This document shows positions 7,135 to 51,327 of a stretch of 64,000 bases of DNA, piece after piece. Every line of letters starts with the position of its first letter. The stretch's first letter is position 1. The translations under genes were made by a program, and so were the position numbers. The stretch is from positions 544,001 to 608,000 of the forward strand of contig CM000436.1 of the NCBI GenBank assembly GCA_000165345.1, read 5' to 3'. The notes beneath the pieces were generated by a model. It was not told the DNA's origin. It saw nothing but the letters and a program-made list of their open reading frames with translations, and did no database searches.

Positions 7135-7884
7135 ATGAGTGATGACATACTAAGTTCACTATTTGATCCTCCTTCGACTCCTTCATCAGGCTCTAGATCT
7201 ACCTCAGCATCTTTTCTATATGATATGGAATTGATGCCTGACAAGAGCGTAGTGAATGAGAAGATTATTGAAGCATCTAATAGTATTATAGAAAGCTCAA
7301 ATGAAATTGTGGATTTAACAATTAGAAATGAGAGTATAACACCTGAGATTCAGAATATTATTGCAAGTGTTCATTTGCAGTGTGAGTTGGATTTAAGGAT
7401 GATTGCCATTAGTGCTAGAAATGCAGAGTATAATCCTAAAAAGGTGAATGCAGTTGTAATGAGATTAAGAGACCCTAAATGTACAGGCTTACTATTTAGA
7501 AGTGGGAGACTAATGATAACTGGAGCAAGGCTAGAAAATGATGCTAAATTAGGTGGAAAGAAAATGGCTAAAATTTGTCAAAAGAGTGGATTTCCAAAGG
7601 TAAAGTTTACAAATTTCAAGATGGAAAACATTATAGCAACAGCAGATTGTAAGTTCCCAATAAGGTTAGAAGGTTTGGCTTATGACCACAGAGACTTTTG
7701 TAATTATGAACCAGAATTATTTCCTGGTTTAGTTTATCGTTACCACCCAGATAACTCACCAACTAAAGCTGTTTTGCTATTGTTTGTTTCCGGTAAAGTA
7801 ATTGTGACTGGTTGTAAGAATTATCAGGAAATCTGTAATGTTTTTGATAATATCTACCCTGTTCTTTGTCAATACAGAAAGTAA
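7135..7884 (+). CDS. TBP: TATA-box binding protein
   Basis: 249 aa. Two TBP repeats: IIASVHLQCELDLRMIAISARNAEYNPKKVNAVVMRLRDPKCTGLLFRSGRLMITGA and NIIATADCKFPIRLEGLA...FPGLVYRYHP..KAVLLLFVSGKVIVTG. An E2F-like site lies in the upstream divergent promoter. Confidence 0.9.
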   Translation: MSDDILSSLFDPPSTPSSGSRSTSASFLYDMELMPDKSVVNEKIIEASNSIIESSNEIVDLTIRNESITPEIQNIIASVHLQCELDLRMIAISARNAEYNPKKVNAVVMRLRDPKCTGLLFRSGRLMITGARLENDAKLGGKKMAKICQKSGFPKVKFTNFKMENIIATADCKFPIRLEGLAYDHRDFCNYEPELFPGLVYRYHPDNSPTKAVLLLFVSGKVIVTGCKNYQEICNVFDNIYPVLCQYRK

Positions 7885-9008: not shown

Positions 9009-9066
9009 TATACCGGTGTCTGCAAATTTTGCAAATGCATGCATGCAATTACATGACGTGGCGACC
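9009..9066. promoter_or_regulatory. Composite element TATACCGG-GTCTGCAAATTTTGCA-TGCATGCATGCA-GACGTGGCGACC in the BTB/RRP5 divergent promoter. Further boxes GTGGCGCGC and TGGCGGGCAA lie at 9251-9276
   Basis: tataccggtgtctgcaaattttgcaaatgcatgcatgcaattacatgacgtggcgaccag. Confidence 0.55.
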
Positions 9067-9638: not shown

Positions 9639-12600
9639 ATGAGTCGAAAGAGGAACCTGAAGAATATTCAAGATGATATTGATGAAGTGGAAGATTTAGA
9701 ACATGGTGATTTTATTGGAATTAAAAGCAAAAATTTGAAAACAATAACATCTTTTACAAATATTGAACGTAGAGATTTAAAGTTAGGAACTTTATTATTT
9801 GGAGTTATCGACCATGTCAGTGAAAAGGAACTTATTATTTCATTACCAGGATCTAACACTGCAATCATATCTATAGAGAATACTCTAGAGGATTCAAGAA
9901 CTATTCCAATTGAATTATTTCAAGAATTGAAGAAGAAATCTCTTGAAGATAGGTTTTCTGTGGGTCAATTTGTAAATGGAGCTATCATTTCCAACAATAA
10001 GATTAAGAATAATATCACTTTGAAACCTTCAATATTGAATGCTGGTTTGAACTCGAATTCAAAATGCTTAAATGTTTTTGGTTATGTTATTTCTGCCTTA
10101 ATTATTTCAAAGGAAAATCATGGATTTAACATCTATACTGGTATTCAAGGAGTGAAAACTGTTTTTATGAAAGTTGAAGAGTCTGAATTTAAAGAATATA
10201 GACTTGGCCAGATTCTTCCTGTTAGTATACATCAATTCTTCAAAGAAAAATCATTATTGATTTGTACTCCAATTTACGATCAGAATGAGAATTCAAAAAT
10301 TGGTAGAAAAGAAATTCTGAGTATTCATGAAATAAAGCCTGGTCTTATGGTTGAATGTCTAATTCATGCTTATAGTCATACTAATCAAAAAGACCAAATC
10401 AGCCAAACCCAAAGTCCTAACAAGAAAAAGAAAGTCTCTGACAAAGTTTCAGTACAACCAAATACAAAATTATTACAATTAAAGAAGGTTGACAAGCAAT
10501 ATGTTACTGACCAGGAATTGGAATCAATTAAAGATTTTCTTCAAAGTGAACATTCTCTTCAAGTTAGCTTTTGTATGGGAACTATGTTGGGTGTTATTCC
10601 AGATGAACATTCTATTCATCCATTATCTTGTTTTTACCCTCAAGAATTTGAATCTTCTTTGACTACGGAAGTTATCAGAAAATCTCCCAAATCCAAGTTT
10701 ATCACTGCTAGAATTATTGCAGTTTCTTCTGGAGCTGATAATAAAATCATTTTATCAACACTTGCTCATAATATTAATCTTAAAAGAGGTAATCAGAAAG
10801 CTATCAGTGAAATATCTATTGGAACAGTCATATCTCCCTCAAATCTTCAAATGAATGATTCTAATACTTTATTAAATTCACTTTCAAATATTACACTATT
10901 TAACTCACAAAGTCAAAAGAAATCTCAAAGTAAAATCAACTTTTTGACCAGAATTTCTGATAAATGGATCTCACTTTCCACCAACCAATTCTCTAAAGAT
11001 TACGATAAAATCGATCAAACCATCAAAACGCAACCATTTAGAGTTATTTCCCATTCTAGATTAGAAAACTCTTTCTTTGTTTCATTTGATCAAAAAGTAG
11101 TACAAGAGAAATACTTCTCATCATATGATGCACTACCTGGTCAAATTGTTAAAGCCACTGTTACTGAAGTTAACAATTGGGGAATCTCTGTTAGACTATC
11201 AGAATATTTCTCAGGTAGAATTTATGCAGAACATCTTTTCAATAGTTCAAGTTCAGGATCAGGATCAATAACAGGAACGAACTTAAGTTCTAATAGCTCT
11301 AAAAGTATGTCCAAAGAACAGATGGATTACATAAAGAAACATTATCAAATTGGAAGAAGCTATCAATTTAAAGTTTTAAGATATGAATATAGTGATAATA
11401 GCTGGAATCCTCTGCTTCTTCTTACAGCTAAACATCTATTAATCAATGATCAATTACCATTAGTAAGATCTATTGATAAATCCTTAAAAATTGGACAAAA
11501 AGTTACAGGATATATTAGTAGAATATGCATACAAAGTACTCAAAAGTCTAATTATAACTCAGATTTGAACCAATCTGAAAAAAGTGACTTTATTATTATT
11601 AGATTCTATGGAGAAGCTTATGGATCAATGTCTTACAAAGAATATATCGACTATTATCAATTTGATAATATTGATGGTATTTCAAAAAAACCAACTATTG
11701 GAGAGGTAATTACTGTTCAAATTAAGAGTATTGATTTAACCAATAAATCTTTAAAACTAACTTTTAGAATGGAAAGTAATGGAGAAGTTGAAGATCCAAA
11801 AACAAGTTCAAATACTCCCTTAAATAGACAATTCCTTGCTCAACTGAAGAACATTAAGTACTCTTTTTATGATGGAATCTTTGATGAGACTATTATCAAT
11901 AGTAAAGGATTTATTTTATTAGGAGTTACAAATCAGGGTCTTTTATTTTCACAAGGTTTAAAAGATTTAGTATATGTACCCAAGTTCTCTATATCAGACA
12001 ATAAGGAGAACTCTGAAAAGATTTATTGTTTATTGGGAGAGGTATATCGAAAATCTAATTCTGTCTCAGACCTTAATTCCAAGATTTCAAAGCTTAAATT
12101 AGCTCCGAGCACTTTAACAGATACTGTTTCAAGACAAACCTTGGAAATGAATTTAATTGGAAGTTCTGGATCTAGTATTAATGTCGAGAATAACTCTATT
12201 ACTTTGAATTTGAATGTCAAGCTTGGATATCTAAAACATTCTATTTTGAATGGAAAACAAGGAGAAGTCATTATCAAAAACCTGAAGAGTCTTACAAATA
12301 ATACCTTATGTCTGGGTTATATTAATCATATTGATCATTATGGATTACTAGTATCAATATTAAGTTCAGAACCTTTAACAGGTATCGTTCCAAGACACTT
12401 AATTAGCTCCAAAGTTTTCTTTGATAGTAAGGAAGAGTTGATGAGACATTTTTCTATTGGAGAGACTTTGCTTCTTAAGGTAGTAAAGCTTGATGAGACA
12501 AACAAAAAAATCACTCTAAGTTTGAAAGATTTGGAAGATGGGACATCGTTAGTTAGAAATTCAACTATTACAAAAAGTATTCTAAAGGATAGACTTGGAG

Positions 12601-15831: not shown

Positions 15832-17973
15832 TCAAAATTTGAAATCTTGGATCAAATTGAAATCCTGTAAAGGATTATGATATCCAGACCTCATAATTTG
15901 ATCACTAGAAATTTGATTATTAGTTAGAATGTTGAGGAGAGTAATTCCAGTAATTGCTCCAAATATTACAGTAGAGACTACTCCATATAGTACGGCTTTA
16001 ACTTTTTTGAGTGATTTTAACTTAGGAATACTGAGGATTAGGAATCTATTATTTAGGTTATTATAGTCGCCATGAGGATCTTGAGTATCAAATACTTTTT
16101 CAATAGCTGGATTAATATCTTCTTGTCTAAAATGCTTGAGATATGATCTGTGAAAAGTGGCTCTACACTTTAGAATTGCAATACAAACATAATAGATTGA
16201 AGAGTAGTCTAAAATTACATCTCTAGGTGAGTTGGTCTTTAATGGTCTGTATTTTCTTTTATTAATTTTAATAAGTTTTGCAAGCCAAAAGTATCTAATA
16301 AGTATAAAGCATGCCTCTAAATTAGGCCTATTTCCAATTTTCTGCATCTTCATTGGGATATGTAGAATGTCCTTAACAGTGATCTTTATTGGATTGATTC
16401 TAAATCTGGCAAAAGTTCGAGTATATTCAGTAGTAGTCCAGAGGAGACACCAGACAAATTGATTTCTGCTAGGGAAAAGTGCTTTGCTATTGGATGGAAG
16501 GTAACTAATATATCCAGAAAGTGAGTCCCAATCAGGAGTCTGCCAATAGAAGTAGCTGCTCGGATCTGGTCTGTATTCATTCACAGATTGGTAATAGTAG
16601 GCTTGATATAAAGTCTGTAACTTAATAGTTCTCGTACATAGATTGAGCGATGTAAAGGATGTTGTGAGTGAATGCTCAAAGTACCTATATAATTTACCAA
16701 ATTGGATGTATTTTGGAGTCTTAGTAATTCCAAGCTGAATTCGGTAGCCATTATTTAGAGATAAAGCAACCAAATTATTAGAACAGGACTTAGGCATTGT
16801 TGTGTATTCAAAGAAATCAGGAGGAATATTAGGAATAGACATTCTTTCTTTAGTAGGCAAAAGAGGTAAATCTCCATTGCTGAGGCCAAATACCGTTAAA
16901 TCTCCTCTAATTGGAATAATTTGCTTAAATAAGTACCACATTGCATCGCTTGGAGACCTTAAATAAAGCTTTTTCCAAGTGTGATAGATTTTTGATTCTA
17001 CTTGAATCTTTTTAAAATCATACTGTTCATATTCATCTCTCAAATAGCCCTGAATTTCCCTCATTGCTTTCATATAAAATTCACATGTGAGTCTTAATAA
17101 GAACTTGTTTCTGTCGTTTTGTTTACCTAACATTTTACTTTTCTTGTTTACTTTTGGAATATTTGAAATTGGTTCTACAAGTTTTACAGCATCCTCAATT
17201 CCCAATTTCTTTAGAGACTCTTCATTATATTCAAACCTTTTCCATATTATGGTATTTTCTGGATTACTTTCTTCTTCCAAATAAGTATCAGAAGTTGAAT
17301 CTTGGGTCTCAGAATCTTTAAAAGAGTCAAAATATCTTTCGAATAATTCAAAACCATAACTTGCTGTTATTTTTGAATAAATATCCCAACACTTTGAGAT
17401 TGAATTTATAGGCCTGGATAATTCTTTAATGAATTTATCATCTTTCTTTTTTCTTTCTAAATTAAAAAATACAGAATCCTCATTAGGATCTTCTCTATTT
17501 AATATACTTTTCTTATCAATTTCATCAATGACTTGTTCTTTTCTAATTTCTTTAGAATTTATAGTTTTTCTGACAAAATACATAATAATTCTAAAATGAG
17601 TTTCTTTTACTACAATATTTGATCCATATTTAATGTTAAATGCCCAATTTCTTATCAAATCTTCTCTAATTGTTTCCAGAGATTGATATTTGTTCTCAAC
17701 GTAGTTTTTTTCCTCCTTTTTTGTAAATATCTCTTCCTCCTGATTGGAGAGTTTCTCACCTTTTGGATCTACATCTAAGATATTTGAATCTTCGATAGAA
17801 AGGTCAAATGTACGAGTGTTGTTCCTAATGTATGAGAATCTCTCTTTCACATTCCAAAATTTAGGTAATATAAAACTTTTTTTTTTTTTGTAAATAGCAC
17901 TCTCAATTACTCCAAATCCACATATTATTGTAAAAACCAATACTAATAACCTTGTTTTGTATTTGAATTTCAT
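15832..17973 (-). CDS. Hypothetical secreted/membrane protein (signal peptide, C-terminal hydrophobic segment)
   Basis: 713 aa. N-terminal MKFKYKTRLLVLVFTIICGFGVIESA is signal-peptide-like. C-terminal AVLYGVVSTVIFGAITGITLL is hydrophobic. Local similarity to the divergently transcribed neighbour: YHTWKKLYLRSPSDAMWYLFKQI vs YIRWMELYKVDPPRSQWFILRKL. Confidence 0.5.
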   Translation of the reverse strand: MKFKYKTRLLVLVFTIICGFGVIESAIYKKKKSFILPKFWNVKERFSYIRNNTRTFDLSIEDSNILDVDPKGEKLSNQEEEIFTKKEEKNYVENKYQSLETIREDLIRNWAFNIKYGSNIVVKETHFRIIMYFVRKTINSKEIRKEQVIDEIDKKSILNREDPNEDSVFFNLERKKKDDKFIKELSRPINSISKCWDIYSKITASYGFELFERYFDSFKDSETQDSTSDTYLEEESNPENTIIWKRFEYNEESLKKLGIEDAVKLVEPISNIPKVNKKSKMLGKQNDRNKFLLRLTCEFYMKAMREIQGYLRDEYEQYDFKKIQVESKIYHTWKKLYLRSPSDAMWYLFKQIIPIRGDLTVFGLSNGDLPLLPTKERMSIPNIPPDFFEYTTMPKSCSNNLVALSLNNGYRIQLGITKTPKYIQFGKLYRYFEHSLTTSFTSLNLCTRTIKLQTLYQAYYYQSVNEYRPDPSSYFYWQTPDWDSLSGYISYLPSNSKALFPSRNQFVWCLLWTTTEYTRTFARFRINPIKITVKDILHIPMKMQKIGNRPNLEACFILIRYFWLAKLIKINKRKYRPLKTNSPRDVILDYSSIYYVCIAILKCRATFHRSYLKHFRQEDINPAIEKVFDTQDPHGDYNNLNNRFLILSIPKLKSLKKVKAVLYGVVSTVIFGAITGITLLNILTNNQISSDQIMRSGYHNPLQDFNLIQDFKF

Positions 17974-18080
17974 TGATTTAATTCGAATTTAATTTCATCT
18001 TCTATAATTAACTAACTTTAAATTAATTGAACTAATTTTTTTTATTTAAGAAATTTCTTCAATTCATGACAATTGAAATG

Positions 18081-18197
18081 CACCGGTATGCAATTTAAAC
18101 AAAAAAATTTATTACTAATAAATTTATCCACATGAAAATAACCGGTATAGAAATTTTGTACAAAAATAATTACATCCACATGAAAATGCCGGTATAG
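18081..18197. promoter_or_regulatory. Three CCGGTAT(A/G) boxes, including a roughly 24-nt direct repeat ATCCACATGAAAAT[AG][AC]CCGGTATAG (18126-18150 and 18174-18197), in the shared divergent promoter
   Basis: caccggtatg at 18081-18090. atccacatgaaaataaccggtatag and atccacatgaaaatgccggtatag follow, 48 bp apart. Read directly from the sequence. Confidence 0.6.
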
Positions 18198-18369
18198 TGC
18201 AAAGAAAATGCGCATGACAGGAAAAAAAAAAAATAATTCAAGTCAAAAAAACAAAAAAAAAGAAGAAAAAATTTTATTTGGTAGTAAGATAAGAAAATGA
18301 TTTTGATTCTTTAAATTAAATTATGAATTTTGGTTATTTAATAAGAATCCAATTAAGTTAAATAAAAAA

Positions 18370-20751
18370 ATGAAACTATTAAAACAACCATTAACTGCAT
18401 TAATTGTGTTAACACTAGTTTTTAGTTGGTTGTTTAATTTGAGAGAATGTAAAGAAGTGAATACATCCAATTTAAATTTGAAATCAGAGACAAATAAAAT
18501 AAGTTATTTAACAGAGAAAATTGATACAAATATTTATAATAGAAGAATAACTCACAATAGTGAGGATTCTGAAATAAAGCAAGAAAAAAAAGAGGAAATT
18601 GAAATTAAGACTTTGGAAAGTGATGATTTAATAAAAATTAATATTAGTCAAAATATTATTCATGTTTTAAGAGTAAATTTTGAACTAGGAAATGATAATC
18701 TTAAAACACAAATTCACTGGGTACTTTTGTTATTGATATTGAAGGCAGACAAATACAAAGAAAGGCCCAAAGGAATGAAACAACTTGATGATTATAATGA
18801 TTGTTTATATTTTATCAAAAAACATCATAAGTTACTGTTAAAGAGTAATCTTTCAAGGGAGGAGAAAATAAAATCAACACAGAGAGCTTGTATAGCATTT
18901 TTTGATAATTTATTCAAGATTAAAAGTAAATGGAGCGATATAAGTTCAAAAGAGTATCTTCAATTATCTAGAAGAATTACCTCTTCTCAGCTTTATATTA
19001 GATGGATGGAGCTATACAAAGTTGATCCTCCACGTTCTCAATGGTTTATTTTAAGAAAATTGGCAATCAATCAGTTTGATGAGATTTTAAGGTTATTTAA
19101 AATATTGACCAAAAATACTAATGAGTATAAATCATTTGAAAATATTCTCATTGAGTTTATGACTCAATTTACTTCTTATTGTAAGGATTACGAATTAAAT
19201 GATAAACTTTATAAACGGGAGTTGGGGAAATACTTGAAAGATGATTACTCTTATAGCTTTAAAGATAAAGCTAACATGATTAAAATTGGGTTTAAAAGCA
19301 AGACTAAAAAAAAAAATAAAAGAAATTTCCGGATTTACCTTCCAGAAGAAATGCCAGATCTTTATGTATATCATCATCAGGTAAATACGTGCGTATTAAA
19401 TTTAGGAATAATGTCTTTATATCCAGAATTAAAGGTTTTTTTCTATGATGTATTTAAGAGAAAACCAACATATTATTTGTTCCATAGAAAGCCCATCACA
19501 ATTAGCAGAAAGACTTTATTAAGATCAAATCAACTCTGTAATTTAATGCTTGAACTTACCAATAAATTGGAAAGATCTTATTATTTGTTAAATATCGAAC
19601 AATACAAGTTTACATATCTTCAAGACACAAATACAGTAGGGAAAACAAATTCTACAAAAAAATTCATTAATAATTTTAGTCTAAGTGAATACATACAAAA
19701 AAAAGGGTTGGTTAAGCCATTACCATTTCATCCCTATTACTATTCAAATCCATTGGATATTGAAATTCAAAATATATTTACAAATTGGCTATTTATTAGC
19801 CATTTTGAAAAGCAAAGTTTGATTAACTCATTAAAGCATTATACAAAAGATATGGAAAAGAAACATAAAGATTTGTTTTTAAATGCAAAACTTGATTTAT
19901 TAAAAAAGTTAATTTCTGAGGATGAACAAATGTTAAAGAATTATGTTTCTAAAGAAGAGAAACAATCGAAAGATGGATTATTCTTGCTTTATTTTCAAAA
20001 AAGAGCAAATAAATTAAAAAACAACGTTGAGAAGGTAATCGATCATTTAAATTCAGTGGAAAATAATATATTCAACAATACGAAACTTTATGAATTGATT
20101 GACCAAGAAAATCCATCTCCTAACGTATTTTCTTTAATTCCAATAATATATTTAAATTCCAAACTTTGGAATGTTCAAAAACTTTTATATAAATACCCTG
20201 TTTCACTTAAAGTGAACTTAAAAATGCTTGTAAATTTATCAGAAACTCTTAAAATTGGCGAGAAAAGCCTTGGGGATATTAAAGTTGGAGATATCTCAAC
20301 CTGTATTAAAGTTACCACCATTTTTTGGAAAAATCAGGGTATTAAAATAAATAATCGAAATTTTAGGATAATTAACCCAGATGATATATCCGAATTATAT
20401 GAAAAAAGCAACGAATTGTCTGAAATTTACATGGACTATGCAACATTATACTTACTTTGTGTAAAATCAGTTTCACAAAGCTTAATTTATTATAGAAGAA
20501 TTCTTAAATATTACTTTGGAGATAACTTTGATAATTACTGGAAATTCAACATGTTATTAGATATGAATAATGAAGAAAGCTCCAATAGTTTCCAATATAT
20601 CAATAAGAAGAATATACATCTTCATTCTCTACCAAATGATTTTATTATGCCAAATTTAACAAAAGGAATATACATCTCAATTTTGAGTGCTTACCTTCTA
20701 TTGACAGTGGGAGCAGTTTGTATTCAGTCATTAATTACCATAATATTTTAA
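18370..20751 (+). CDS. Hypothetical secreted protein (signal peptide, C-terminal hydrophobic tail, possible GPI signal)
   Basis: 793 aa with ATG start. MKLLKQPLTALIVLTLVFSWLFNL signal peptide. C-terminus GIYISILSAYLLLTVGAVCIQSLITIIF. Putative paralog of the 15832-17973 gene. Confidence 0.5.
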   Translation: MKLLKQPLTALIVLTLVFSWLFNLRECKEVNTSNLNLKSETNKISYLTEKIDTNIYNRRITHNSEDSEIKQEKKEEIEIKTLESDDLIKINISQNIIHVLRVNFELGNDNLKTQIHWVLLLLILKADKYKERPKGMKQLDDYNDCLYFIKKHHKLLLKSNLSREEKIKSTQRACIAFFDNLFKIKSKWSDISSKEYLQLSRRITSSQLYIRWMELYKVDPPRSQWFILRKLAINQFDEILRLFKILTKNTNEYKSFENILIEFMTQFTSYCKDYELNDKLYKRELGKYLKDDYSYSFKDKANMIKIGFKSKTKKKNKRNFRIYLPEEMPDLYVYHHQVNTCVLNLGIMSLYPELKVFFYDVFKRKPTYYLFHRKPITISRKTLLRSNQLCNLMLELTNKLERSYYLLNIEQYKFTYLQDTNTVGKTNSTKKFINNFSLSEYIQKKGLVKPLPFHPYYYSNPLDIEIQNIFTNWLFISHFEKQSLINSLKHYTKDMEKKHKDLFLNAKLDLLKKLISEDEQMLKNYVSKEEKQSKDGLFLLYFQKRANKLKNNVEKVIDHLNSVENNIFNNTKLYELIDQENPSPNVFSLIPIIYLNSKLWNVQKLLYKYPVSLKVNLKMLVNLSETLKIGEKSLGDIKVGDISTCIKVTTIFWKNQGIKINNRNFRIINPDDISELYEKSNELSEIYMDYATLYLLCVKSVSQSLIYYRRILKYYFGDNFDNYWKFNMLLDMNNEESSNSFQYINKKNIHLHSLPNDFIMPNLTKGIYISILSAYLLLTVGAVCIQSLITIIF

Positions 20752-20848: not shown

Positions 20849-22675
20849 CTAGTGATGCATTGGTGGATGAATCGGCAAATTAAACCCAGAATTAATGTTA
20901 AAATTACCATTAGACATGTATTGATTAGGATGACACTGAGAAGCTTTATTAGTAACAATTTTCGTGATTGATTCAGAAAATGGGTTTTCTCCAAGTATAT
21001 TTACTGGCACAGAAGCTTTAAATGAAAAACATGTTGGGGAAGAAGGGGGTGAAATCTGAGATTGTTGGTCAGTGTTGGTTTCTAACTCTGGATTATGGCT
21101 TTGATTAGCTAAAATTGGAGCCTGATCTGGAAAAGGGCATTGACCACCAGCCAATGGAGTACCGTAATTTGGATTTGCCACTTTTGGCCTTCTTTTACAT
21201 TTCTTTTTGAATACATCTTGAGAAAAACATGCGGGAGAAGAAAAGTCAATTTCAACTTTTGGAGGTTGGATAAGTGGACGAATATTTGGAGATTGGAAAA
21301 GCGTGCTAGTTGAGATGTTTGTATGACCACCTTGAGAAATACCTGCTTGATCTTTTGGAGGTCCGTTTCCATCTTCAGCTCCAGATGACTTTTTTTTAGT
21401 GAGACATTCTTCTGCCATTGCTGTGAGTAAGTATTTAGCGAGCATTTGAGAGTCCATTCCGAGAGGGTTTGGAACGGTTGGTGCTTGAACTCCAGAGGGA
21501 CCTGGTATTCCTGGAGCTACTCCAGCAACAATTTCTGGAGAAATTGGAGCTTGAATATGTGGAGGGGGGCCGCCTGCCATTGTGGGTAGTGGCATACCCA
21601 TTGGGTGAATATTTGTTGGATCGAATTGCATCTGCATATTTGGAGGTGGTGGGAGGTGGGGGGGGTTCATATTCATGTTAGGGATTTGTATTGGGCCTGG
21701 AGCTACCATTGGCATTGGCATTGGCATTGGTATTGGCATTGACATCGGCATTGGCATTGGCACTGGCATTGGCATTGGAGTTGGCAAATGCGCTGGAATA
21801 GGCATTTGCATGGGCATGGGAGCTGGCATTTGCATATTTTGCGGAGGTAATGGAGGCATTGGAAGTTGATGATGTGGCTGATAAGGAAATGGATTTGGAG
21901 TTTGAATCGTTGCTGGCAATGATTGCATTCTACCATTTAACTGCATTTGGGTGGGATAATGTTGTTCTTGCTGATGAATAGAATGGAAAACTGGAATTTG
22001 AGGAGCCATTTGAACATATTCATTTGGCTGTTTATGTATTGGGATTGGCTGTAATTGAGCCCCGTGTCCATGGGATGGCATTTGAATTGGGTGAGCCATC
22101 ATTGGATTTTGATGAGGCTGTGGATACGGCTGCGATAGAGGGATTTGAGGAGGCTGATGAATCTGGATTGGGACTGAACCTCGGAGATCTAGTGGAACTC
22201 CTTTTTCCTGGATTGAATTCAACTCAGAAGAAGTTCCATAAATATCAGAGCACGATATATTAGATTCTGGACTTTGTTCAATATTTATCAAGTTTTTTGA
22301 TCGTTTTGGGGAAATATTAGTTGAGACAACTCTACTTAAAACAACATTATTTTCAATATGCCCCTCAGAGATGTAATTATTACCATTATTAGGCTTTTCA
22401 TTGATCTCTTGTTTCTCTTTAATAGAATCAAAGTTTCGGCTATCTAATTCATTCTTATTTACAATTCTGGTTTCTTTCATTGGAGAGTTACTAAAATCTT
22501 CTTTATTATTAATACTAGAAATATGAGAACTATTATCTATGGAACTCTGACTTGCTGGAGAAGCAAATTGTTTTTTCTTCAAGAGTAATTCATTCTCAAG
22601 ATTTTTAACAGTTGCATCCAACTCATTAAGATTTTCATCTAAGATTTCCATTTCTTGCTTTTCTTTTGGGAACAT
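20849..22675 (-). CDS. Low-complexity Pro/Met/Gln-rich protein with N-terminal coiled coil
   Basis: The ORF track starts at a TTG (22687). The first in-frame ATG is at 22675 (MFPKEKQEMEILDENLNELDATVKNLENELLLKKKQ). The central run PMPMPVPMPMPMSMPIPMPMPMPM is encoded by a CATTGG hexamer repeat. Confidence 0.45.
   Translation of the reverse strand: MFPKEKQEMEILDENLNELDATVKNLENELLLKKKQFASPASQSSIDNSSHISSINNKEDFSNSPMKETRIVNKNELDSRNFDSIKEKQEINEKPNNGNNYISEGHIENNVVLSRVVSTNISPKRSKNLINIEQSPESNISCSDIYGTSSELNSIQEKGVPLDLRGSVPIQIHQPPQIPLSQPYPQPHQNPMMAHPIQMPSHGHGAQLQPIPIHKQPNEYVQMAPQIPVFHSIHQQEQHYPTQMQLNGRMQSLPATIQTPNPFPYQPHHQLPMPPLPPQNMQMPAPMPMQMPIPAHLPTPMPMPVPMPMPMSMPIPMPMPMPMVAPGPIQIPNMNMNPPHLPPPPNMQMQFDPTNIHPMGMPLPTMAGGPPPHIQAPISPEIVAGVAPGIPGPSGVQAPTVPNPLGMDSQMLAKYLLTAMAEECLTKKKSSGAEDGNGPPKDQAGISQGGHTNISTSTLFQSPNIRPLIQPPKVEIDFSSPACFSQDVFKKKCKRRPKVANPNYGTPLAGGQCPFPDQAPILANQSHNPELETNTDQQSQISPPSSPTCFSFKASVPVNILGENPFSESITKIVTNKASQCHPNQYMSNGNFNINSGFNLPIHPPMHH
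21700..21800. repeat. (CATTGG/CATCGG)n hexamer microsatellite inside the CDS (encodes PMPM repeat)
   Basis: cattggcattggcattggtattggcattgacatcggcattggcattggcactggcattggcattgg. The alternate-frame ORFs 21675-21869 (+) and 21703-21936 (-) are repeat artefacts. Confidence 0.8.
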
Positions 22676-23440
22676 TTTTCTATCCAATTCTCAAAGGAAT
22701 ATATCACATATAATTCCCACAAATTGTTTATTCTGGCTTTTTTGTTTTTGTAAGAACAATTTATTCAATTTAACAACTAACCACTATCTCCACTAAGTTA
22801 AATTTAAACAATTCCTCTTTATTTTTTTACTGCCACAAAAAGTGTCAAGTTTTACAGTTGACTGCATCTAAATTCTTACTCCTAGCTACCAGTAAACGAG
22901 TGCAAATCCGCCACACGTGGTGCATGCATACACAGATGGATGCATGCGCGCGCCAAAACTCTAACTTAGGCCGGAGTAACCTATATTTGCACACGTAAAG
23001 GAAAAAAGAAGAAGAAAAAAAAATCAAATAACTGCATCCAAATAATGGGTGATATTTGCGAGAAAATTACACAGTAATGGACGTAAAGTTTGAAAGGGGG
23101 GTCGTTAAATTTTTTTTTTTCTTTTAATTCCTTAAGCCAGAATACAAAGACGAATAAAAAAATGAAAAATATTTGAATGAAAAATAAACGAGTTATATAC
23201 GCAATTCTTGAGAGCGTTTTTACTTATAATATAAAAATAAACTATGAATCATTTATAGCTTTTTCTTAATTGAATGAGGTTTACTCATTACGTTTGTAAC
23301 TCAATCTTAAATAGCATAACTCAGAAACAAAAGCAATCCCTTAGTTGTATAAAAGCATCTAAAATAGATATTTGAATACATATGATTTTCTTGAATTAAT
23401 ATCTACCTGTTTTTTTTTTTTTTTTTAATTTTTTTTTATG

Positions 23441-23495
23441 TATACCGGCATTCGCACATGCATGACTAATTTGCATACGTGTCTGCAAATTTGCA
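23441..23495. promoter_or_regulatory. Second copy of the TATACCGG ... GTCTGCAAATTTGCA composite element, upstream of the Pro/Met-rich gene
   Basis: tataccggcattcgcacatgcatgactaatttgcatacgtgtctgcaaatttgcatgtgg. It shares the 12-mer gtctgcaaattt and the TATACCGG core with 9009-9035. Confidence 0.5.
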
Positions 23496-23591
23496 TGTGG
23501 ATAACAACTTGGTAAATATAAAATACAACATATAATCAGGCGGTTGACAGGTTAAATATAAATAGACTATGAAACAAATCTCAATGTTAAA

Positions 23592-30768: not shown

Positions 30769-31599
30769 TCAATTAATTTAGTTTATTACAATGCTAGCTT
30801 TACTTTTTTTTTTCTTATTTGATTTCTGCATGAACTTCCCGCCAATTTTAGAAATTTATTTTTTTCCCTTCTTCAAGTTACATGCAGTAATTGCATGCAA
30901 TATTGACGTTGTTTTGAATTGTTGGATATACCCGTAAGTACATAATAATTATTTAATTAAATTAAACAAAAGTTGTATATTTTAGGGATAGAATTAAAGA
31001 AGGAAAGATATACAAAGGAAAGGAGATAGAAAAAACAAGACGAAGGAAAAAAAGAGAAGGAGATAGGAAAAACAAGACGAGAGAAAAAGAGAAAGAAAAG
31101 AAATAAAAGGCGCGTTATCATGCGTATATTCATTCATTGAAGGAGAAAAGTATGATGTTTTAGACAATATAAAAAAACACTGGATAAAAGTTAAGTAAAA
31201 TAAAGTAAACCATTTATTGAAGTTAATAGCTACCAAATTTATGAACATTTATTTGGGGCTTATTATTAATTATTATATATTTCAAATATATTAATTCCCC
31301 ACTATAGAAATCAACACATTGGCGCCGGCGGGATCGATACATGGAATAAGTCATTTCAAATAGATCCAGGGACCGAGGGAAAATTGTAGGAGAGGATGTA
31401 TGGTGAAGGAAAGTAGGGGAAAAAAGTAGGTAAATGATAGAATATAAAATTTTAAAATAACAAATTCTATTTTGATTTGGGATGTTGAAGTAAATCGAGA
31501 GTTAAAAAGTATACCGGGTTTCTTTTTTTTCATATCAAATTTTGAAGGTATTATTGATTTTAGTTAGAGTGGGAAGGTAATTATAGAAAGAAAGCTAAA

Positions 31600-48471: not shown

Positions 48472-51327
48472 ATGGAGAAAATTATTTATTTATTATTAAT
48501 ATCAATAAACTGGTTGGTAGGAAATGCTATTTCACAGTTAATTGTGTCAGAACAAGAAATGTGTATGAATGGACAATGCAAAAAAATGTTGAACGGTCAT
48601 TTAGTTATACAGAATAATCAGGTAGGCTTATTTTTTTTTAGTAAAATAATAATTGAAAATTAAATATTTTGAAATTAATTAATTTTATAGGATGTATCGT
48701 TGAATTTTGGATCATCAGAAGTAAATGGAAAGAATGCAAAAGAAGCAGACCCAGGTTCTAATGGATTTAAGATTACAATAAAGAAGTCTCCAATATTAAT
48801 TGCATATGATTTGAGTTATATTTCAACTTTATATCATGATTTTCAAGAAGATATAAAATTGTTTTCGTTTACTCAAGTTGAAGGTGACCCATCTAGATTT
48901 TGTAATCATGAATTGAGAAGTTGTCAGAAAGTGAGAGACGAGTATTTATATGGAACACCAAATTGTAAGTTTTAATAAATTATTTTGAATTTAGCAATAT
49001 CTTAATAAAACATATTTAAAATGATTTATAGTGCCACCAGGTCAAAAAAATTGGACTCAAGAAACTCCAATACCACCTGGATCACAAGGATCGTGTTGTT
49101 GGTGTCCAGAATTATATGTAACGGTAAGTTCAATTGAATTAAAGTGCTGGAGGAGGGGCTTTTTATTAGGGATTAAGGTTTTTTATATTAGAGAAATTAA
49201 TGACATATTTACTCCCAATTAAATAATTTTTTTTTTTAGATAAATACTGATGCACCATTTTCAAGAGCTACATTACATTGTTCATGGATACGTAAGTTTA
49301 ATATATTACAAATGGAAATAATTTATTGAACTATTTTAAACTATTTATAGAGCAAAGAATGTGGTGGAATGTTTACTTATCGAAGTCATGCCCAGTTTGG
49401 ATACCACCATGGTGGACAGCTTTTAGAATAGGTGGATGGAACTGGCAATACTCATTAGAGGTTGAATTATCTTGGTTTAGTCCAACAGAATCATCAATTA
49501 ATAAGTTATCAAGTACAGAATTGGAAAATATGGAAAATGAATGTAAGAAAGAAAATAAGGATTCCACAATAGATTGTTCAAGATTAAGGCATAAAGAATC
49601 AGGAATTCAGACTTCTGTACATACATTAAATTCATCGTCTCCATCATTCTATGATCCAAATTTTGGAGCTTCAGTACAGGTAATAAGCTCAGGACCACCG
49701 TTTGGGAGTGCTAATGCAAAGGATTTGAATGGTTATTACATGTTACAACCAACATTTTCACCAAAAGGGATGCCTGCTAGTATTTCAATTCCTCCTTTAA
49801 GAAGTGGGTGTGGAAAAGCTTCAAAAAACCAAACAGAAGAGGAAATAAATGATTGTTTAAAGCCAACATTAATTATTCCTCCAGAAAATGCAGACTTTAC
49901 AGGAGTTTCATGTGATAAGATAGGAACAAGTGTTCATACTTGGAGTTCTGTGAACGGTAGATTTTGCTATCATCCACCTGGTACTTGTCAAAGAGCTCAG
50001 ATAGCTCACTTTTATAAGAAAGTTATAGAAGATCATTCACTTGGAAAGATTTCACAATATTCAGTAAGAGCACAAAATTCTGGTTCTCCACAGTTGATTT
50101 TGGATTCATTAGGAGAAATTGGTCATGAGGAGATGGATCAAAATGATATGGGAAATATAACTAATATACAATCACGCAGATTCTTTTTGGGATATAATTT
50201 TGATTCAATCTTTGACACAGAAATAATGTTCTCAGTCGAAGCTTCTTCTGTGTCTTGGGTAGCAACATCTTCTCCTGGAATTATTACATTTATAGAACCA
50301 CCACCTTTGGAGGCTTGCACAGCAATGAGTAGTTTTGGCTGTCCTCTAAAGGTTTATATTAAGAATAGTGGTAAGTTTGAATATATATATATATACATTT
50401 CGAATTGAATTGAAAATAACTTAACAAAAATATTCTATAGGGGATATTGATTCAGGTTTTGTAGTTCAAATACCTTATTGTACAAAGTCAGGAGTACAAA
50501 CAAGTGAGGTAGGTTTGTATTTAATTCATTCAAATTTATATAATTAATTAATTTAGGTTGATCCAATAATGGCACAAACAAAGAAGATTAAAGCCAATTC
50601 AATAGGAATTTTTACTTTTGTATTGGGAGTTTCCGTATTAACTGGGAGTGAATATAAGTGCGTGGTAAGTATATATATATTTAATGCATCCAATATATGC
50701 ATGCATACAATAAATGCATGCATGCAATATATTGGTAAACACTATTAAATAACAATATTAAATATTATTTCTATTCAAATAATAGGTTGTGTTGTATAAT
50801 TCATTTTCAGTTCAACTGGATCAGAATATGTTCACTTTTTCAACAACTTCTACAACGGTAAGTTTATTTGAAAGAAGATATCGTTTTTGAATCTTAATAT
50901 TAATTATTAATATAAATATTTTGATATCAAATTGAAAATTTAAGATTTCAATTGCAAGTTCAGATTCAATAATTTCTGATGTAGTAGTGAATCAAACTTC
51001 GTTAACAAACAAAAAGTTTGATTCTATGTTTACAGGAAATAAATGTATTTCTTGTGGATTAAATTTTTGGTGTTTAATAGCAAATAGTAAGTTAAAAATG
51101 AATCATTCTTTTAAAATTTAAAATAATTAAAATAAATTTCAGTTAAAGATTGTATTATGTTAGGTATTAAATGTATAGGGATAATACTTGGATTGATAAT
51201 AGGATTTGTTATATTATTAAAGTTGATAAAGATAATACTTGAACTACGTAAAAATAAGAAAATTGAAACAAGGATAATTAATAATAGCCAAGAAAGTTTA
51301 AGTCAAGGTATTAATAGGAAGAATTGA
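48472..51327 (+). CDS. 10-exon gene encoding a 717-aa signal-peptide / single-TM cysteine-containing surface protein; candidate HAP2/GCS1-like gamete fusogen
   Basis: Exons: 48472-48621, 48691-48964, 49041-49123, 49240-49291, 49351-50370, 50441-50508, 50557-50664, 50786-50857, 50945-51086, 51143-51327. Donors are GTAAGT/GTAGGT and acceptors are tag/cag after T-rich tracts. Total exon length is 2154 nt, a multiple of 3. Signal peptide MEKIIYLLLISINWLVGNAIS. The ectodomain has conserved-looking Cys motifs (SCCWCPELY, FTGVSCDKIGTSVHTWSSVNGRFCYHPPGTCQRAQ). TM IGIILGLIIGFVILL is followed by a basic tail RKNKKIETR. The HAP2 assignment is from memory of the family architecture, not a search. Confidence 0.5.
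50690..50735. other. Near-palindromic GCATGC-rich element inside intron 7 of the 10-exon gene
   Basis: ccaatatatgcatgcatacaataaatgcatgcatgcaatatattgg. The arms CCAATATATGCATGCA and TGCATGCAATATATTGG are nearly reverse-complementary. Confidence 0.5.

What the first reader, a model, noticed from the sequence alone, without database searches (positions are those of the whole stretch)
15832..20751. Head-to-head pair of paralog-like secreted proteins sharing a promoter with a triplicated CCGGTATAG box
The two large ORFs (713 and 793 aa) both begin with signal peptides and both end with hydrophobic C-terminal segments. They share local similarity (YHTWKKLYLRSPSDAMWYLFKQI vs YIRWMELYKVDPPRSQWFILRKL). 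They diverge from a 396-bp spacer that contains three CCGGTAT(A/G) boxes. Two of these are embedded in a 24-nt direct repeat (ATCCACATGAAAAT..CCGGTATAG) 48 bp apart. Neither protein has a recognisable domain. The arrangement looks like a divergently duplicated lineage-specific secreted-protein pair under common control.
Basis: seen in the sequence. Interest (0 to 1): 0.5.

Follow-up and report, generated by a model that had tools for sequence, protein, structure and literature searches.

The report
Female-gamete paralog pair, shared conserved promoter
Two neighbouring Cryptosporidium parvum genes (cgd8_2060 and cgd8_2070) are very old, highly diverged duplicates encoding membrane proteins made in female gametes, and the short DNA between them holds a repeated sequence box (CCGGTATA) that is conserved across the genus, recurs in front of other genes, and is absent from the published motif lists I could read.

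Summary
The window is C. parvum chromosome 8. The two ORFs are cgd8_2060 (713 aa, minus strand) and cgd8_2070 (793 aa, plus strand), 396 bp apart. The spacer holds three CCGGTAT(A/G) boxes, two of them inside a 24/25-nt unit repeated 48 bp apart.

The proteins are true but distant paralogs. Profile-profile comparison gives E 3e-9. Twenty-four columns, six of them Cys, are invariant across both families. The family is restricted to Cryptosporidium, has two members, no Pfam domain and no fold match in the PDB. Each protein has a signal peptide, an all-alpha ectodomain and one C-terminal membrane segment, so they are anchored rather than freely secreted.

The head-to-head arrangement is kept in all ten species examined, including gastric C. 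serpentis. Published data show tight co-expression (r 0.97) and 14- to 27-fold induction in female gametes.

In the spacer, the main blocks invariant across five species are the boxes themselves. The spacer has none of the catalogued C. parvum motifs except one CCAAT.

CCGGTATA is not private to this pair. It is the third most over-represented word family in the window's non-coding DNA. Of 39 CCGGTAT sites in ten species, 36 are intergenic. It also lies upstream of HAP2, a kinase, cgd8_2080, cgd8_2040 and a PX-domain gene. It is most likely the binding site of an unidentified transcription factor.

The parts
15832..17973 (-). cgd8_2060 (EAK89404.1, CPATCC_004027), 713 aa: signal peptide, Cys-containing ectodomain, transmembrane segment 658-684, 29-aa tail
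   Evidence: ORF. Exact match to the NCBI entry. Mauzy qPCR primers for cgd8_2060 map at 16529 and 16644. Hydropathy.
18370..20751 (+). cgd8_2070 (EAK89405.1, CPATCC_004028), 793 aa: signal peptide, all-alpha ectodomain, hydrophobic segment 765-793 at the extreme C-terminus (transmembrane segment or GPI signal)
   Evidence: ORF. Exact match. Primers map at 18843 and 19020. Hydropathy. AF2 model with pLDDT 66, pTM 0.69.
17974..18369 (.). 396-bp shared spacer, inferred to be a bidirectional promoter active in female gametes
   Evidence: It contains none of the catalogued C. parvum motifs except one CCAAT.
18079..18097 (+). Box 1: GCACCGGTATGCAATTTAA (CCGGTATG at 18083-18090)
   Evidence: Conserved from C. 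parvum to C. canis, with variants ACCGGTAA and GCCGGTAA in C. ryanae and C. xiaoi.
18126..18150 (+). Composite unit 1: ATCCACATGAAAAT-AA-CCGGTATAG
   Evidence: TCCACAT and ACCGGTAT are invariant in five species. The unit is deleted in C. meleagridis.
18174..18197 (+). Composite unit 2: ATCCACATGAAAAT-G-CCGGTATAG
   Evidence: CATCCACATGAA and ATGCCGGTA are invariant in five species.
18065..18071 (+). CATGACA word flanking the box cluster on the left
   Evidence: Partly conserved.
18213..18219 (+). CATGACA word flanking the box cluster on the right
9009..9016 (-). CCGGTATA in the cgd8_2040 (BTB) / cgd8_2050 (RRP5) divergent spacer, pointing to cgd8_2040
   Evidence: An orthologous site is present in all ten species, including C. 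serpentis.
23441..23448 (-). CCGGTATA upstream of cgd8_2080, preceded by CATGTG-CGAATG. A TCCACATGC box lies at 23489-23502.
   Evidence: Conserved in C. meleagridis, the chipmunk genotype, C. ubiquitum and the Logan species.
31510..31517 (-). CCGGTATA 83 nt upstream of the ATG of a plus-strand PX-domain-like gene that starts at 31600 (reverse orientation)
41702..41709 (+). CCGGTATA 589 nt upstream of the Ser/Thr kinase ORF at 42291 (cgd8_2180, assigned by gene order)
47983..47990 (+). CCGGTATA between the RCC1 gene and HAP2 (cgd8_2220)

Best explanation
cgd8_2060 and cgd8_2070 are the only two members of a Cryptosporidium-restricted protein family. Each protein has a signal peptide, a 630-740-residue all-alpha ectodomain with six shared cysteines, and a single C-terminal membrane segment. 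The family arose by an inverted duplication before the genus radiated, and the two genes have stayed head-to-head ever since.

The 396-bp spacer acts as one bidirectional promoter. It is silent in asexual stages and switched on in female gametes. Its working parts are a tandemly duplicated composite module, TCCACATG-AAAAT-N(1-2)-CCGGTATAG, plus a third CCGGTATG box.

CCGGTAT(A/G) is a genus-wide promoter word confined to intergenic DNA. It is most likely the binding site of a sequence-specific transcription factor that has not been identified. In this spacer it probably acts together with a factor that reads the adjoining CAYRTG box to give sexual-stage expression.

Shown: paralogy, synteny, co-expression, female induction, motif over-representation and motif conservation.

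Inferred: that the boxes bind a factor and drive both genes, and that the two proteins work together, possibly as a heteromer on the female gamete or zygote membrane system, for example in fertilisation or oocyst formation.
For: Paralogy:
- BLASTP E 2e-6.
- hhalign of the two ortholog alignments gives score 81.8 and E 3e-9. Controls score 27.3 for the reversed alignment and at most 30.3 over 40 column shuffles.
- Weaker blocks further N-terminal are collinear (E 0.0017 and 0.035).
- 24 columns including 6 Cys are invariant across 21 sequences. Controls give 11 to 17.
- AF2 confidence rose from pLDDT 40 to 66 when the two families were merged into one alignment.

Restriction to the genus:
- Only Cryptosporidium proteins were found among 5.8 billion clusters and in an exhaustive HMM scan of 1.84 billion representatives.

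Synteny:
- The head-to-head pair sits between cgd8_2080 and RRP5 in nine other species, including C. serpentis.

Expression:
- Mauzy 2012 qPCR profiles correlate at r 0.97, while the flanking genes give -0.4 and -0.1.
- Tandel 2019 gives log2 fold change of +4.79 and +3.77 in sorted females. RRP5 next door is -2.96.
- Hasan 2024 lists both as 'Female specific'. Both go down with differentiation inhibitors and up (+1.9, +1.4) in the one positive treatment column, which I take to be the inducer (column headers were not read).

Motif:
- 10 matches against 0.54 expected in the window.
- CCGGTATA occurs 7 times against 0.21 expected in non-ORF DNA. That ranks it third, after TGCATGCA and the E2F words.
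- In orthologous spacers of eight divergent species, CCGGTAT occurs in 17 region-species combinations against 1.14 expected. That equals TGCATGC.
- 36 of 39 sites in ten species lie in the 15% of the DNA that is intergenic.
- In the 396-bp spacer, the blocks of 5 nt or more that are invariant in five species are the box fragments plus one GCAAA pentamer just after unit 2.
- The spacer has no GCATGC, TGCATGYR, E2F, G-box, GCACAC, MAACTA or GAGAC word.
- Within the window, 5 of 8 genes that share a spacer with the box are up in sorted females, against 0 or 1 of about 18 others (post hoc Fisher P 0.0009 to 0.0045).
Against: - There is no direct evidence that any protein binds the box, or that the spacer fires in both directions. 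Transcription start sites are unknown here.
- The box also precedes genes that are not sex-regulated (cgd8_2040, the PX-domain gene). Its most deeply conserved copy lies in the RRP5/BTB spacer. It may therefore be a general element rather than a stage-specific one.
- C. serpentis keeps the gene pair but has no CCGGTAT in its spacer, and C. ryanae has only variants.
- The expression association rests on about 26 genes in one window and was tested post hoc.
- HAP2 and cgd8_2180 fall in in-vivo females and may be male genes. That blurs the label 'female'.
- An HMM profile of family A did not retrieve family B at database-wide significance. Homology rests on the pairwise and profile-profile tests.
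- The function of the proteins is entirely inferred.
Confidence: 0.55

Rival explanations
1. CCGGTAT(A/G) is a general, stage-independent promoter or boundary element, for example the site of a nucleosome-excluding general regulatory factor. Female specificity of this spacer would then come only from the neighbouring CCACATG and CATGACA words or from elements not recognised here.
For: The copy in the RRP5/BTB spacer is conserved in all ten species. Those genes are not induced in females: RRP5 is down, and cgd8_2040 is absent from the list of differentially expressed genes. The box also lies 83 nt upstream of a PX-domain gene that is not on that list. It occurs in both orientations.
Against: Five of the 8 box-bearing genes in the window are up in sorted females, against 0 or 1 of about 18 others. 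Three copies in one 396-bp promoter, two at a fixed distance from a second conserved word, look like a specific enhancer module.
Confidence: 0.3
2. The boxes act at the RNA level. They would be part of a 5' UTR and serve, for example, in storage or translational repression of maternal mRNA in females.
For: Both mRNAs are detectable at 2 h, which could be carry-over from oocysts or sporozoites. Translational repression in females is reported (PMC11078545). The boxes lie 110-287 nt from the two ATGs, so they could be transcribed.
Against: All three copies are in one orientation, so they could sit in only one of the two mRNAs. Orthologous copies are inverted or palindromic in C. canis, C. felis, C. 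xiaoi and the Logan species. Other copies lie up to 760 nt from an ATG. There is no Rfam match.
Confidence: 0.07
3. The triplicated box and the 48-bp repeat are neutral: a chance match or a recent slippage product in AT-rich DNA.
For: Short repeats are common in AT-rich spacers. C. meleagridis has lost exactly one unit without losing the genes.
Against: The repeat units are retained from C. parvum to C. canis although the spacer is only about 60% identical between them. The boxes account for all but one of the invariant blocks. The word is 18-fold over-represented in the window and almost confined to intergenic DNA.
Confidence: 0.03
4. The two proteins are unrelated. They would merely share composition and topology, so the locus is not a duplication.
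For: Pairwise identity is about 18-24%. An HMM of family A does not find family B at library-wide significance. OrthoMCL places them in different groups (OG5_195749 and OG5_195750).
Against: The hhalign score of 81.8 is far above the reversed and shuffled controls. Blocks are collinear and six Cys are invariant across both families. The merged alignment raises AF2 confidence.
Confidence: 0.05

Closest known systems
ApiAP2-type promoter words of C. parvum: AP2_1 TGCATGCA, and the macrogamont motif TGCATG(T/C)(G/A) assigned to AP2 cgd2_3490 (PMC3734150, PMC11078545)
   Same: These are also short words confined to intergenic DNA and over-represented to a similar degree. The target genes respond to the same differentiation modulators. 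CCACATG overlaps the CATGTG half of TGCATGTG.
   Different: The spacer has no TGCATG or GCATGC at all. CCGGTATA shares no core with any motif in the 25-motif table of Oberstaller 2013 or in Table 3 of the 2025 review. No binding protein is known.
Unknown motif A[T/A]G[T/A]GGA.A upstream of class II oocyst-wall protein genes (Oberstaller 2013, PMC3734150)
   Same: The reverse complement of TATCCACAT in unit 1, ATGTGGATA, fits this consensus exactly. Oocyst-wall genes are also late, female-stage genes.
   Different: Unit 2 reads ATGTGGATG and misses the last position. The published consensus is loose and matches many coding sites. I could not inspect the COWP promoters.
Oomycete promoter motif ATACCGGTAT / GTACCGGTA (Plasmopara and Phytophthora, PMC10031896)
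   Same: It has the same ACCGGTA core. The C. canis copy is the perfect palindrome ATACCGGTAT.
   Different: It belongs to a different lineage and no factor is known in either. The resemblance is in sequence only and was not tested.
Adjacent paralogous gamete-surface genes of Plasmodium (P48/45-P47 and P230-P230p). This is from general knowledge and was not tested here.
   Same: They are neighbouring paralogs that encode Cys-containing, membrane-attached proteins made in sexual stages.
   Different: Those belong to the 6-Cys s48/45 beta-sandwich family. This family is all-alpha with no Pfam or PDB relative and is arranged head-to-head.

Membership tests
Bidirectional promoter shared by co-expressed divergent genes | Head-to-head genes separated by a short spacer | tested here: met
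   The spacer is 396 bp in C. parvum and 270-585 bp in the nine other species.
Bidirectional promoter shared by co-expressed divergent genes | The two genes are co-expressed and differ from their flanking genes | tested here: met
   r 0.97 against -0.4 and -0.1. Both are up in females while RRP5 is down. Both respond alike to modulators.
Bidirectional promoter shared by co-expressed divergent genes | One regulatory region demonstrably drives transcription in both directions | not testable with these tools
   This needs transcription start site mapping and two-reporter constructs.
Sequence-specific transcription-factor binding site (cis-regulatory motif) | Over-represented in and confined to non-coding upstream DNA | tested here: met
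   10 matches against 0.54 expected. 7 against 0.21 in non-ORF DNA. 36 of 39 sites are intergenic.
Sequence-specific transcription-factor binding site (cis-regulatory motif) | Conserved at orthologous positions while the flanking DNA diverges | tested here: met
Sequence-specific transcription-factor binding site (cis-regulatory motif) | A protein binds the site, and mutating it changes expression | not testable with these tools
   No binding or reporter data were found in the papers read.
AP2 cgd2_3490 macrogamont regulon (Hasan 2024) | Down with differentiation inhibitors and up with the inducer | tested here: met
   Supplementary file 3 of PMC11078545 shows this for both genes. The single positive column is taken to be the inducer; headers were not read.
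AP2 cgd2_3490 macrogamont regulon (Hasan 2024) | TGCATG(T/C)(G/A) in the promoter | tested here: not met
   No TGCATG occurs on either strand of 17974-18369.
TATA box / core promoter element | A single oriented copy at a fixed short distance from the transcription start, with a TATA(A/T)A core | tested here: not met
   There are three copies 47-59 bp apart. Copies occur in both orientations. Orthologous variants CCGGTATT and CCGGTATG lack TATA. Distance to the ATG ranges from 81 to 831 nt. The transcription start itself is not known.
Named Cryptosporidium secreted-protein families (SKSR, MEDLE, WYLE, FGLN, GGC, mucins) | Detectable sequence similarity to other family members in the same genome | tested here: not met
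   The searches returned only orthologs of each gene and no other C. parvum protein.
GPI-anchored surface protein (cgd8_2070 only) | N-terminal signal peptide plus a hydrophobic stretch at the extreme C-terminus | tested here: met
   Residues 3-24 and 765-793.
GPI-anchored surface protein (cgd8_2070 only) | A predicted omega site, or biochemical evidence for an anchor | not tested
   No GPI predictor was available. The paralog cgd8_2060 has a 29-aa tail after the aligned segment, which favours a transmembrane helix.

The most novel reading that the evidence does not exclude
CCGGTAT(A/G), alone or paired at a fixed distance with CAYRTG, is the missing cis-code for sexual-stage (gamete) gene expression in Cryptosporidium. 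It would be read by a transcription factor not yet linked to any motif. The cgd8_2060/2070 spacer would be its cleanest natural example, because it carries none of the known AP2 or E2F words.
Probability: 0.2. Interest if true: 0.7.

Novelty: new member of a known kind. Interest (0 to 1): 0.45.

Why it matters
How Cryptosporidium switches on female and male gene programmes is an open question, and no female commitment factor is known (PMC13657310). The motif catalogue in the 2025 review (its Table 3) lists six families.

This spacer offers three things:
- A compact (396 bp), deeply conserved promoter that is active in females and free of the catalogued motifs, so it can be dissected directly with existing transfection tools.
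- A candidate new promoter word that is as conserved locally as TGCATGCA, and that can be used to search for its binding factor.
- Two orphan membrane proteins of the female stage that are conserved across the genus. They are candidates for roles in fertilisation or oocyst formation and so for blocking transmission.

Tried and rejected
- AF2 of cgd8_2060 with 13 orthologs gave pLDDT 40 and was unusable.
- The exhaustive HMM search with the cgd8_2060 profile gave one hit outside the family, P0039 (E 6e-8). It is a bacterial-type protein with an F5/8-C domain and DUF346 propeller repeats. Its repeat 'LYHKWQ..SWS.W..I.IRGDP' matches residues 327-375 four times. I rejected it as a repeat-inflated chance match, because the paralog lacks IRGD and the region is helical in the model.
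- Rfam found nothing in the spacer.
- A TATA-box reading was rejected (see the membership test).
- A c-Myb site (YAACNG) fits only unit 1 (TAACCG), so I did not pursue it.
- The 84-aa ORF at 30994-31248 looked like the target of the 31510 box. It is low-complexity and probably spurious. The real neighbour is a PX-domain gene on the other strand.
- The text of Mullapudi 2007, Oberstaller 2013 and 2014, Xiao 2025, the 2025 review and Hasan 2024 holds no CCGG-containing motif.
- Walzer 2024 and Bankier 2003 are not held. The 2026 sporozoite proteome has no held supplements. Single-cell cluster membership and protein detection could therefore not be checked.

Full report
**Identity of the locus**

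The window is AT-rich (about 30% GC). Both ORFs match Cryptosporidium parvum Iowa II and ATCC proteins exactly: EAK89404.1 / CPATCC_004027 and EAK89405.1 / CPATCC_004028. The 2002-aa upstream neighbour is the RRP5-like protein.

The 249-aa TBP ORF at 7135-7884 is cgd8_2030 (PMC9705513). The qPCR primers of Mauzy et al. 2012 for cgd8_2030 to cgd8_2080 map in order onto the window. The 713-aa ORF (15832-17973, minus strand) is therefore cgd8_2060. The 793-aa ORF (18370-20751, plus strand) is cgd8_2070.

**Check of the observation**

One correction applies. The hydrophobic segment of cgd8_2060 is residues 658-684 and is followed by a 29-residue tail. That of cgd8_2070 (765-793) is at the very end. 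Neither protein has a Pfam domain.

**Are the proteins paralogs?**

- BLASTP of the pair gives its best match near the C-terminus (E 2e-6).
- I collected 13 orthologs of cgd8_2060 and 10 of cgd8_2070. Profile-profile comparison gives 96% probability and E 3e-9 over 135 columns that include the membrane segment.
- Controls for that comparison: the reversed alignment scores 27.3. Forty column shuffles reach at most 30.3. The real score is 81.8.
- With the C-terminal part removed, two further blocks align in the same order. A325-468 aligns with B204-413 (E 0.0017), and A101-136 aligns with B91-126 (E 0.035).
- A joint alignment of 21 sequences has 24 columns invariant across both families, spread from A113/B103 to A650/B755. 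Six are cysteines: A195/B145, A297/B174, A397/B341, A446/B390, A555/B645 and A597/B697. Reversed or block-permuted controls give 11 to 17 invariant columns.
- AF2 with cgd8_2060 orthologs alone was poor (pLDDT 40). With the merged alignment, cgd8_2070 reached pLDDT 66 and pTM 0.69 as an all-alpha protein.

I conclude that the two are whole-length, very old paralogs.

A caveat remains. An HMM of family A does not find family B at library-wide significance, and OrthoMCL separates them.

**Distribution and fold**

All searches returned only Cryptosporidium proteins, one ortholog of each gene per species. The model has no counterpart in the PDB.

**Synteny**

I fetched the locus from nine sources: C. 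meleagridis, a chipmunk genotype, C. ubiquitum, an unnamed species in run SRR31860986, C. canis, C. felis, C. ryanae, C. xiaoi and gastric C. serpentis. The order P5-ATPase, cgd8_2080, B, A, RRP5, BTB, TBP, OGG and the head-to-head orientation are the same in all. The duplication therefore predates the deepest split sampled.

**Expression (published data)**

- In the Mauzy qPCR series both genes show about 1e-6 at 2 h, near zero from 6 to 24 h, and a rise at 48-72 h.
- Log medians of the two genes correlate at r 0.97. Against the flanking genes the values are -0.4 to -0.5 (cgd8_2050) and -0.1 to -0.2 (cgd8_2080).
- In Tandel et al. 2019, mean log2 CPM in sorted asexual, in-vitro female and in-vivo female parasites is 2.65 / 7.43 / 5.15 for cgd8_2060. 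For cgd8_2070 it is 0.96 / 4.73 / 4.91. RRP5 falls by 2.96.
- In Hasan et al. 2024 both genes are labelled 'Female specific'. Both are reduced by several macrogamont-differentiation inhibitors (down to -5.7 and -6.0). Both are raised (+1.9, +1.4) in the one positive treatment column, which I take to be the inducer because I did not read the column headers.

Common, female-stage control is therefore well supported.

**The spacer**

Across C. parvum, the chipmunk genotype, C. ubiquitum, the SRR31860986 species and C. canis, spacer identity to C. parvum is 59-80%. The only invariant blocks of 5 nt or more are ACCGG, TCCACAT, ACCGGTAT, CATCCACATGAA, ATGCCGGTA and GCAAA.

C. meleagridis lacks one repeat unit. 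C. felis, C. xiaoi and C. ryanae have inverted or variant copies (ACCGGTAA, ACCGGAAT). C. serpentis has none in this spacer.

The C. parvum spacer contains none of the catalogued motif families apart from one CCAAT. It has no GCATGC, TGCATGYR, E2F, G-box, GCACAC, MAACTA or GAGAC word.

**The box is not private to this pair**

- In the window's 25 kb of non-ORF DNA, CCGGTATA occurs 7 times against 0.21 expected. It ranks directly after the TGCATGCA and E2F word families.
- All seven CCGGTATA copies and one of the three CCGGTATG copies are intergenic.
- They lie upstream of cgd8_2040/2050, cgd8_2060/2070, cgd8_2080, a PX-domain gene, the kinase cgd8_2180 and HAP2 (cgd8_2220).
- In 22-kb syntenic stretches of ten species, 36 of 39 CCGGTAT sites fall in the 15% of DNA that is intergenic. 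The nominal P is 2e-26, but orthologous sites are not independent.
- In an unbiased 7-mer ranking over orthologous spacers of eight divergent species, CCGGTAT occurs in 17 region-species combinations against 1.14 expected. That is the same as TGCATGC. CCACATG occurs in 14 against 1.17.
- The copy in the RRP5/BTB spacer is kept in every species, including C. serpentis.
- A second promoter, that of cgd8_2080, has the same composite layout: CATGTG, then 6 nt, then CCGGTAT.

**Relation to known motifs**

CCGGTATA is absent from the 25 motifs of Oberstaller 2013, from Table 3 of the 2025 review, and from the text of the other regulatory papers I could read.

The CCACATG part has two partial precedents. 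The reverse complement of TATCCACAT fits the unassigned motif A[T/A]G[T/A]GGA.A upstream of class II oocyst-wall genes. CATGTG is the 3' half of the macrogamont motif TGCATGTG.

Oomycetes have a promoter word ATACCGGTAT. That is a resemblance in sequence only.

**Stage association**

In the window, 5 of 8 genes that share a spacer with the box are up in sorted females: cgd8_2060, 2070, 2080, 2180 and 2220. Among about 18 other genes the count is 0 or 1 (Fisher P 0.0009 to 0.0045). This test is post hoc and small. HAP2 and cgd8_2180 drop in in-vivo females and may be male genes. The safest wording is 'sexual or late stage'.

**Conclusion**

- The pair is an ancient inverted duplication of a genus-specific membrane protein gene.
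- The two genes are co-expressed in female gametes from a shared spacer whose conserved core is the repeated box module.
- The box is a general, conserved Cryptosporidium promoter word. It is not in the motif catalogues I could read, and its binding factor is unknown.
- Whether it confers stage specificity or is a general element is open. The genome-wide scan and reporter mutagenesis described above would settle this.

Noticed in passing
window 22991, 38473, 40307, 41641, 47919, 47930: ACACGTAA / TTACGTGT occurs 6 times against 0.4 expected, and all copies are intergenic. It lies about 55-60 nt upstream of the CCGGTATA boxes of the kinase (cgd8_2180) and HAP2 promoters, as an inverted pair before HAP2. 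It also occurs upstream of cgd8_2080. It is not in the published motif tables I read.
   Followed up: partly
L007 (C. meleagridis) 9713-10000 compared with window 18126-18173: C. meleagridis has lost one 48-bp composite unit of the promoter repeat, as expected from recombination between the two direct repeats. It keeps boxes 1 and 3.
   Followed up: partly
window 16915-17061 (cgd8_2060 residues 327-375): The profile of cgd8_2060 matches, four times over, the propeller repeat 'LYHKWQ..SWS.W..I.IRGDP..NSDGRLEIF' of an unrelated 783-aa protein (P0039; F5/8-C domain plus DUF346 repeats), E 6e-8. This is probably a repeat-inflated chance match, but the shared YHxW...IRGD...NGD pattern is striking.
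   Followed up: partly
window 20849-22687 (cgd8_2080): This is a 612-aa protein with a long Pro/Met/Gln-rich low-complexity region (PMPMPMP runs) and no Pfam domain. Its listed ORF starts at TTG, so the true start is probably the ATG a few codons downstream. It is mildly up in females and more so in vivo.
   Followed up: no
window 31600-32219: A PX-domain-like gene appears split by an intron (exon candidates 31600-31821 and 31974-32219, plus strand). It lies in a 1.9-kb stretch with no long ORF.
   Followed up: no
window 48000-51000: HAP2 (cgd8_2220, PF10699) shows up only as an internal 360-aa ORF that begins at TTG, so the gene must have further exons. Its upstream region combines a GGCGGGAA-type E2F word, TGCATGCATGCA and CCGGTATA within 40 nt.
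   Followed up: no
L009 (Logan run SRR31860986, contig of 25 kb): A Cryptosporidium contig with no species name attached in the collection. It is about 70% identical in protein to C. parvum and fully syntenic. The called cgd8_2070 ortholog is shorter (723 aa) and the spacer longer (585 bp), which suggests a mis-called start.
   Followed up: no
window, all non-ORF DNA: TGCATGCA is extremely frequent (about 20 palindromic sites in 25 kb of non-ORF DNA against about 0.2 expected), often as tandem GCATGCATGCA. This is the known AP2_1 motif.
   Followed up: no
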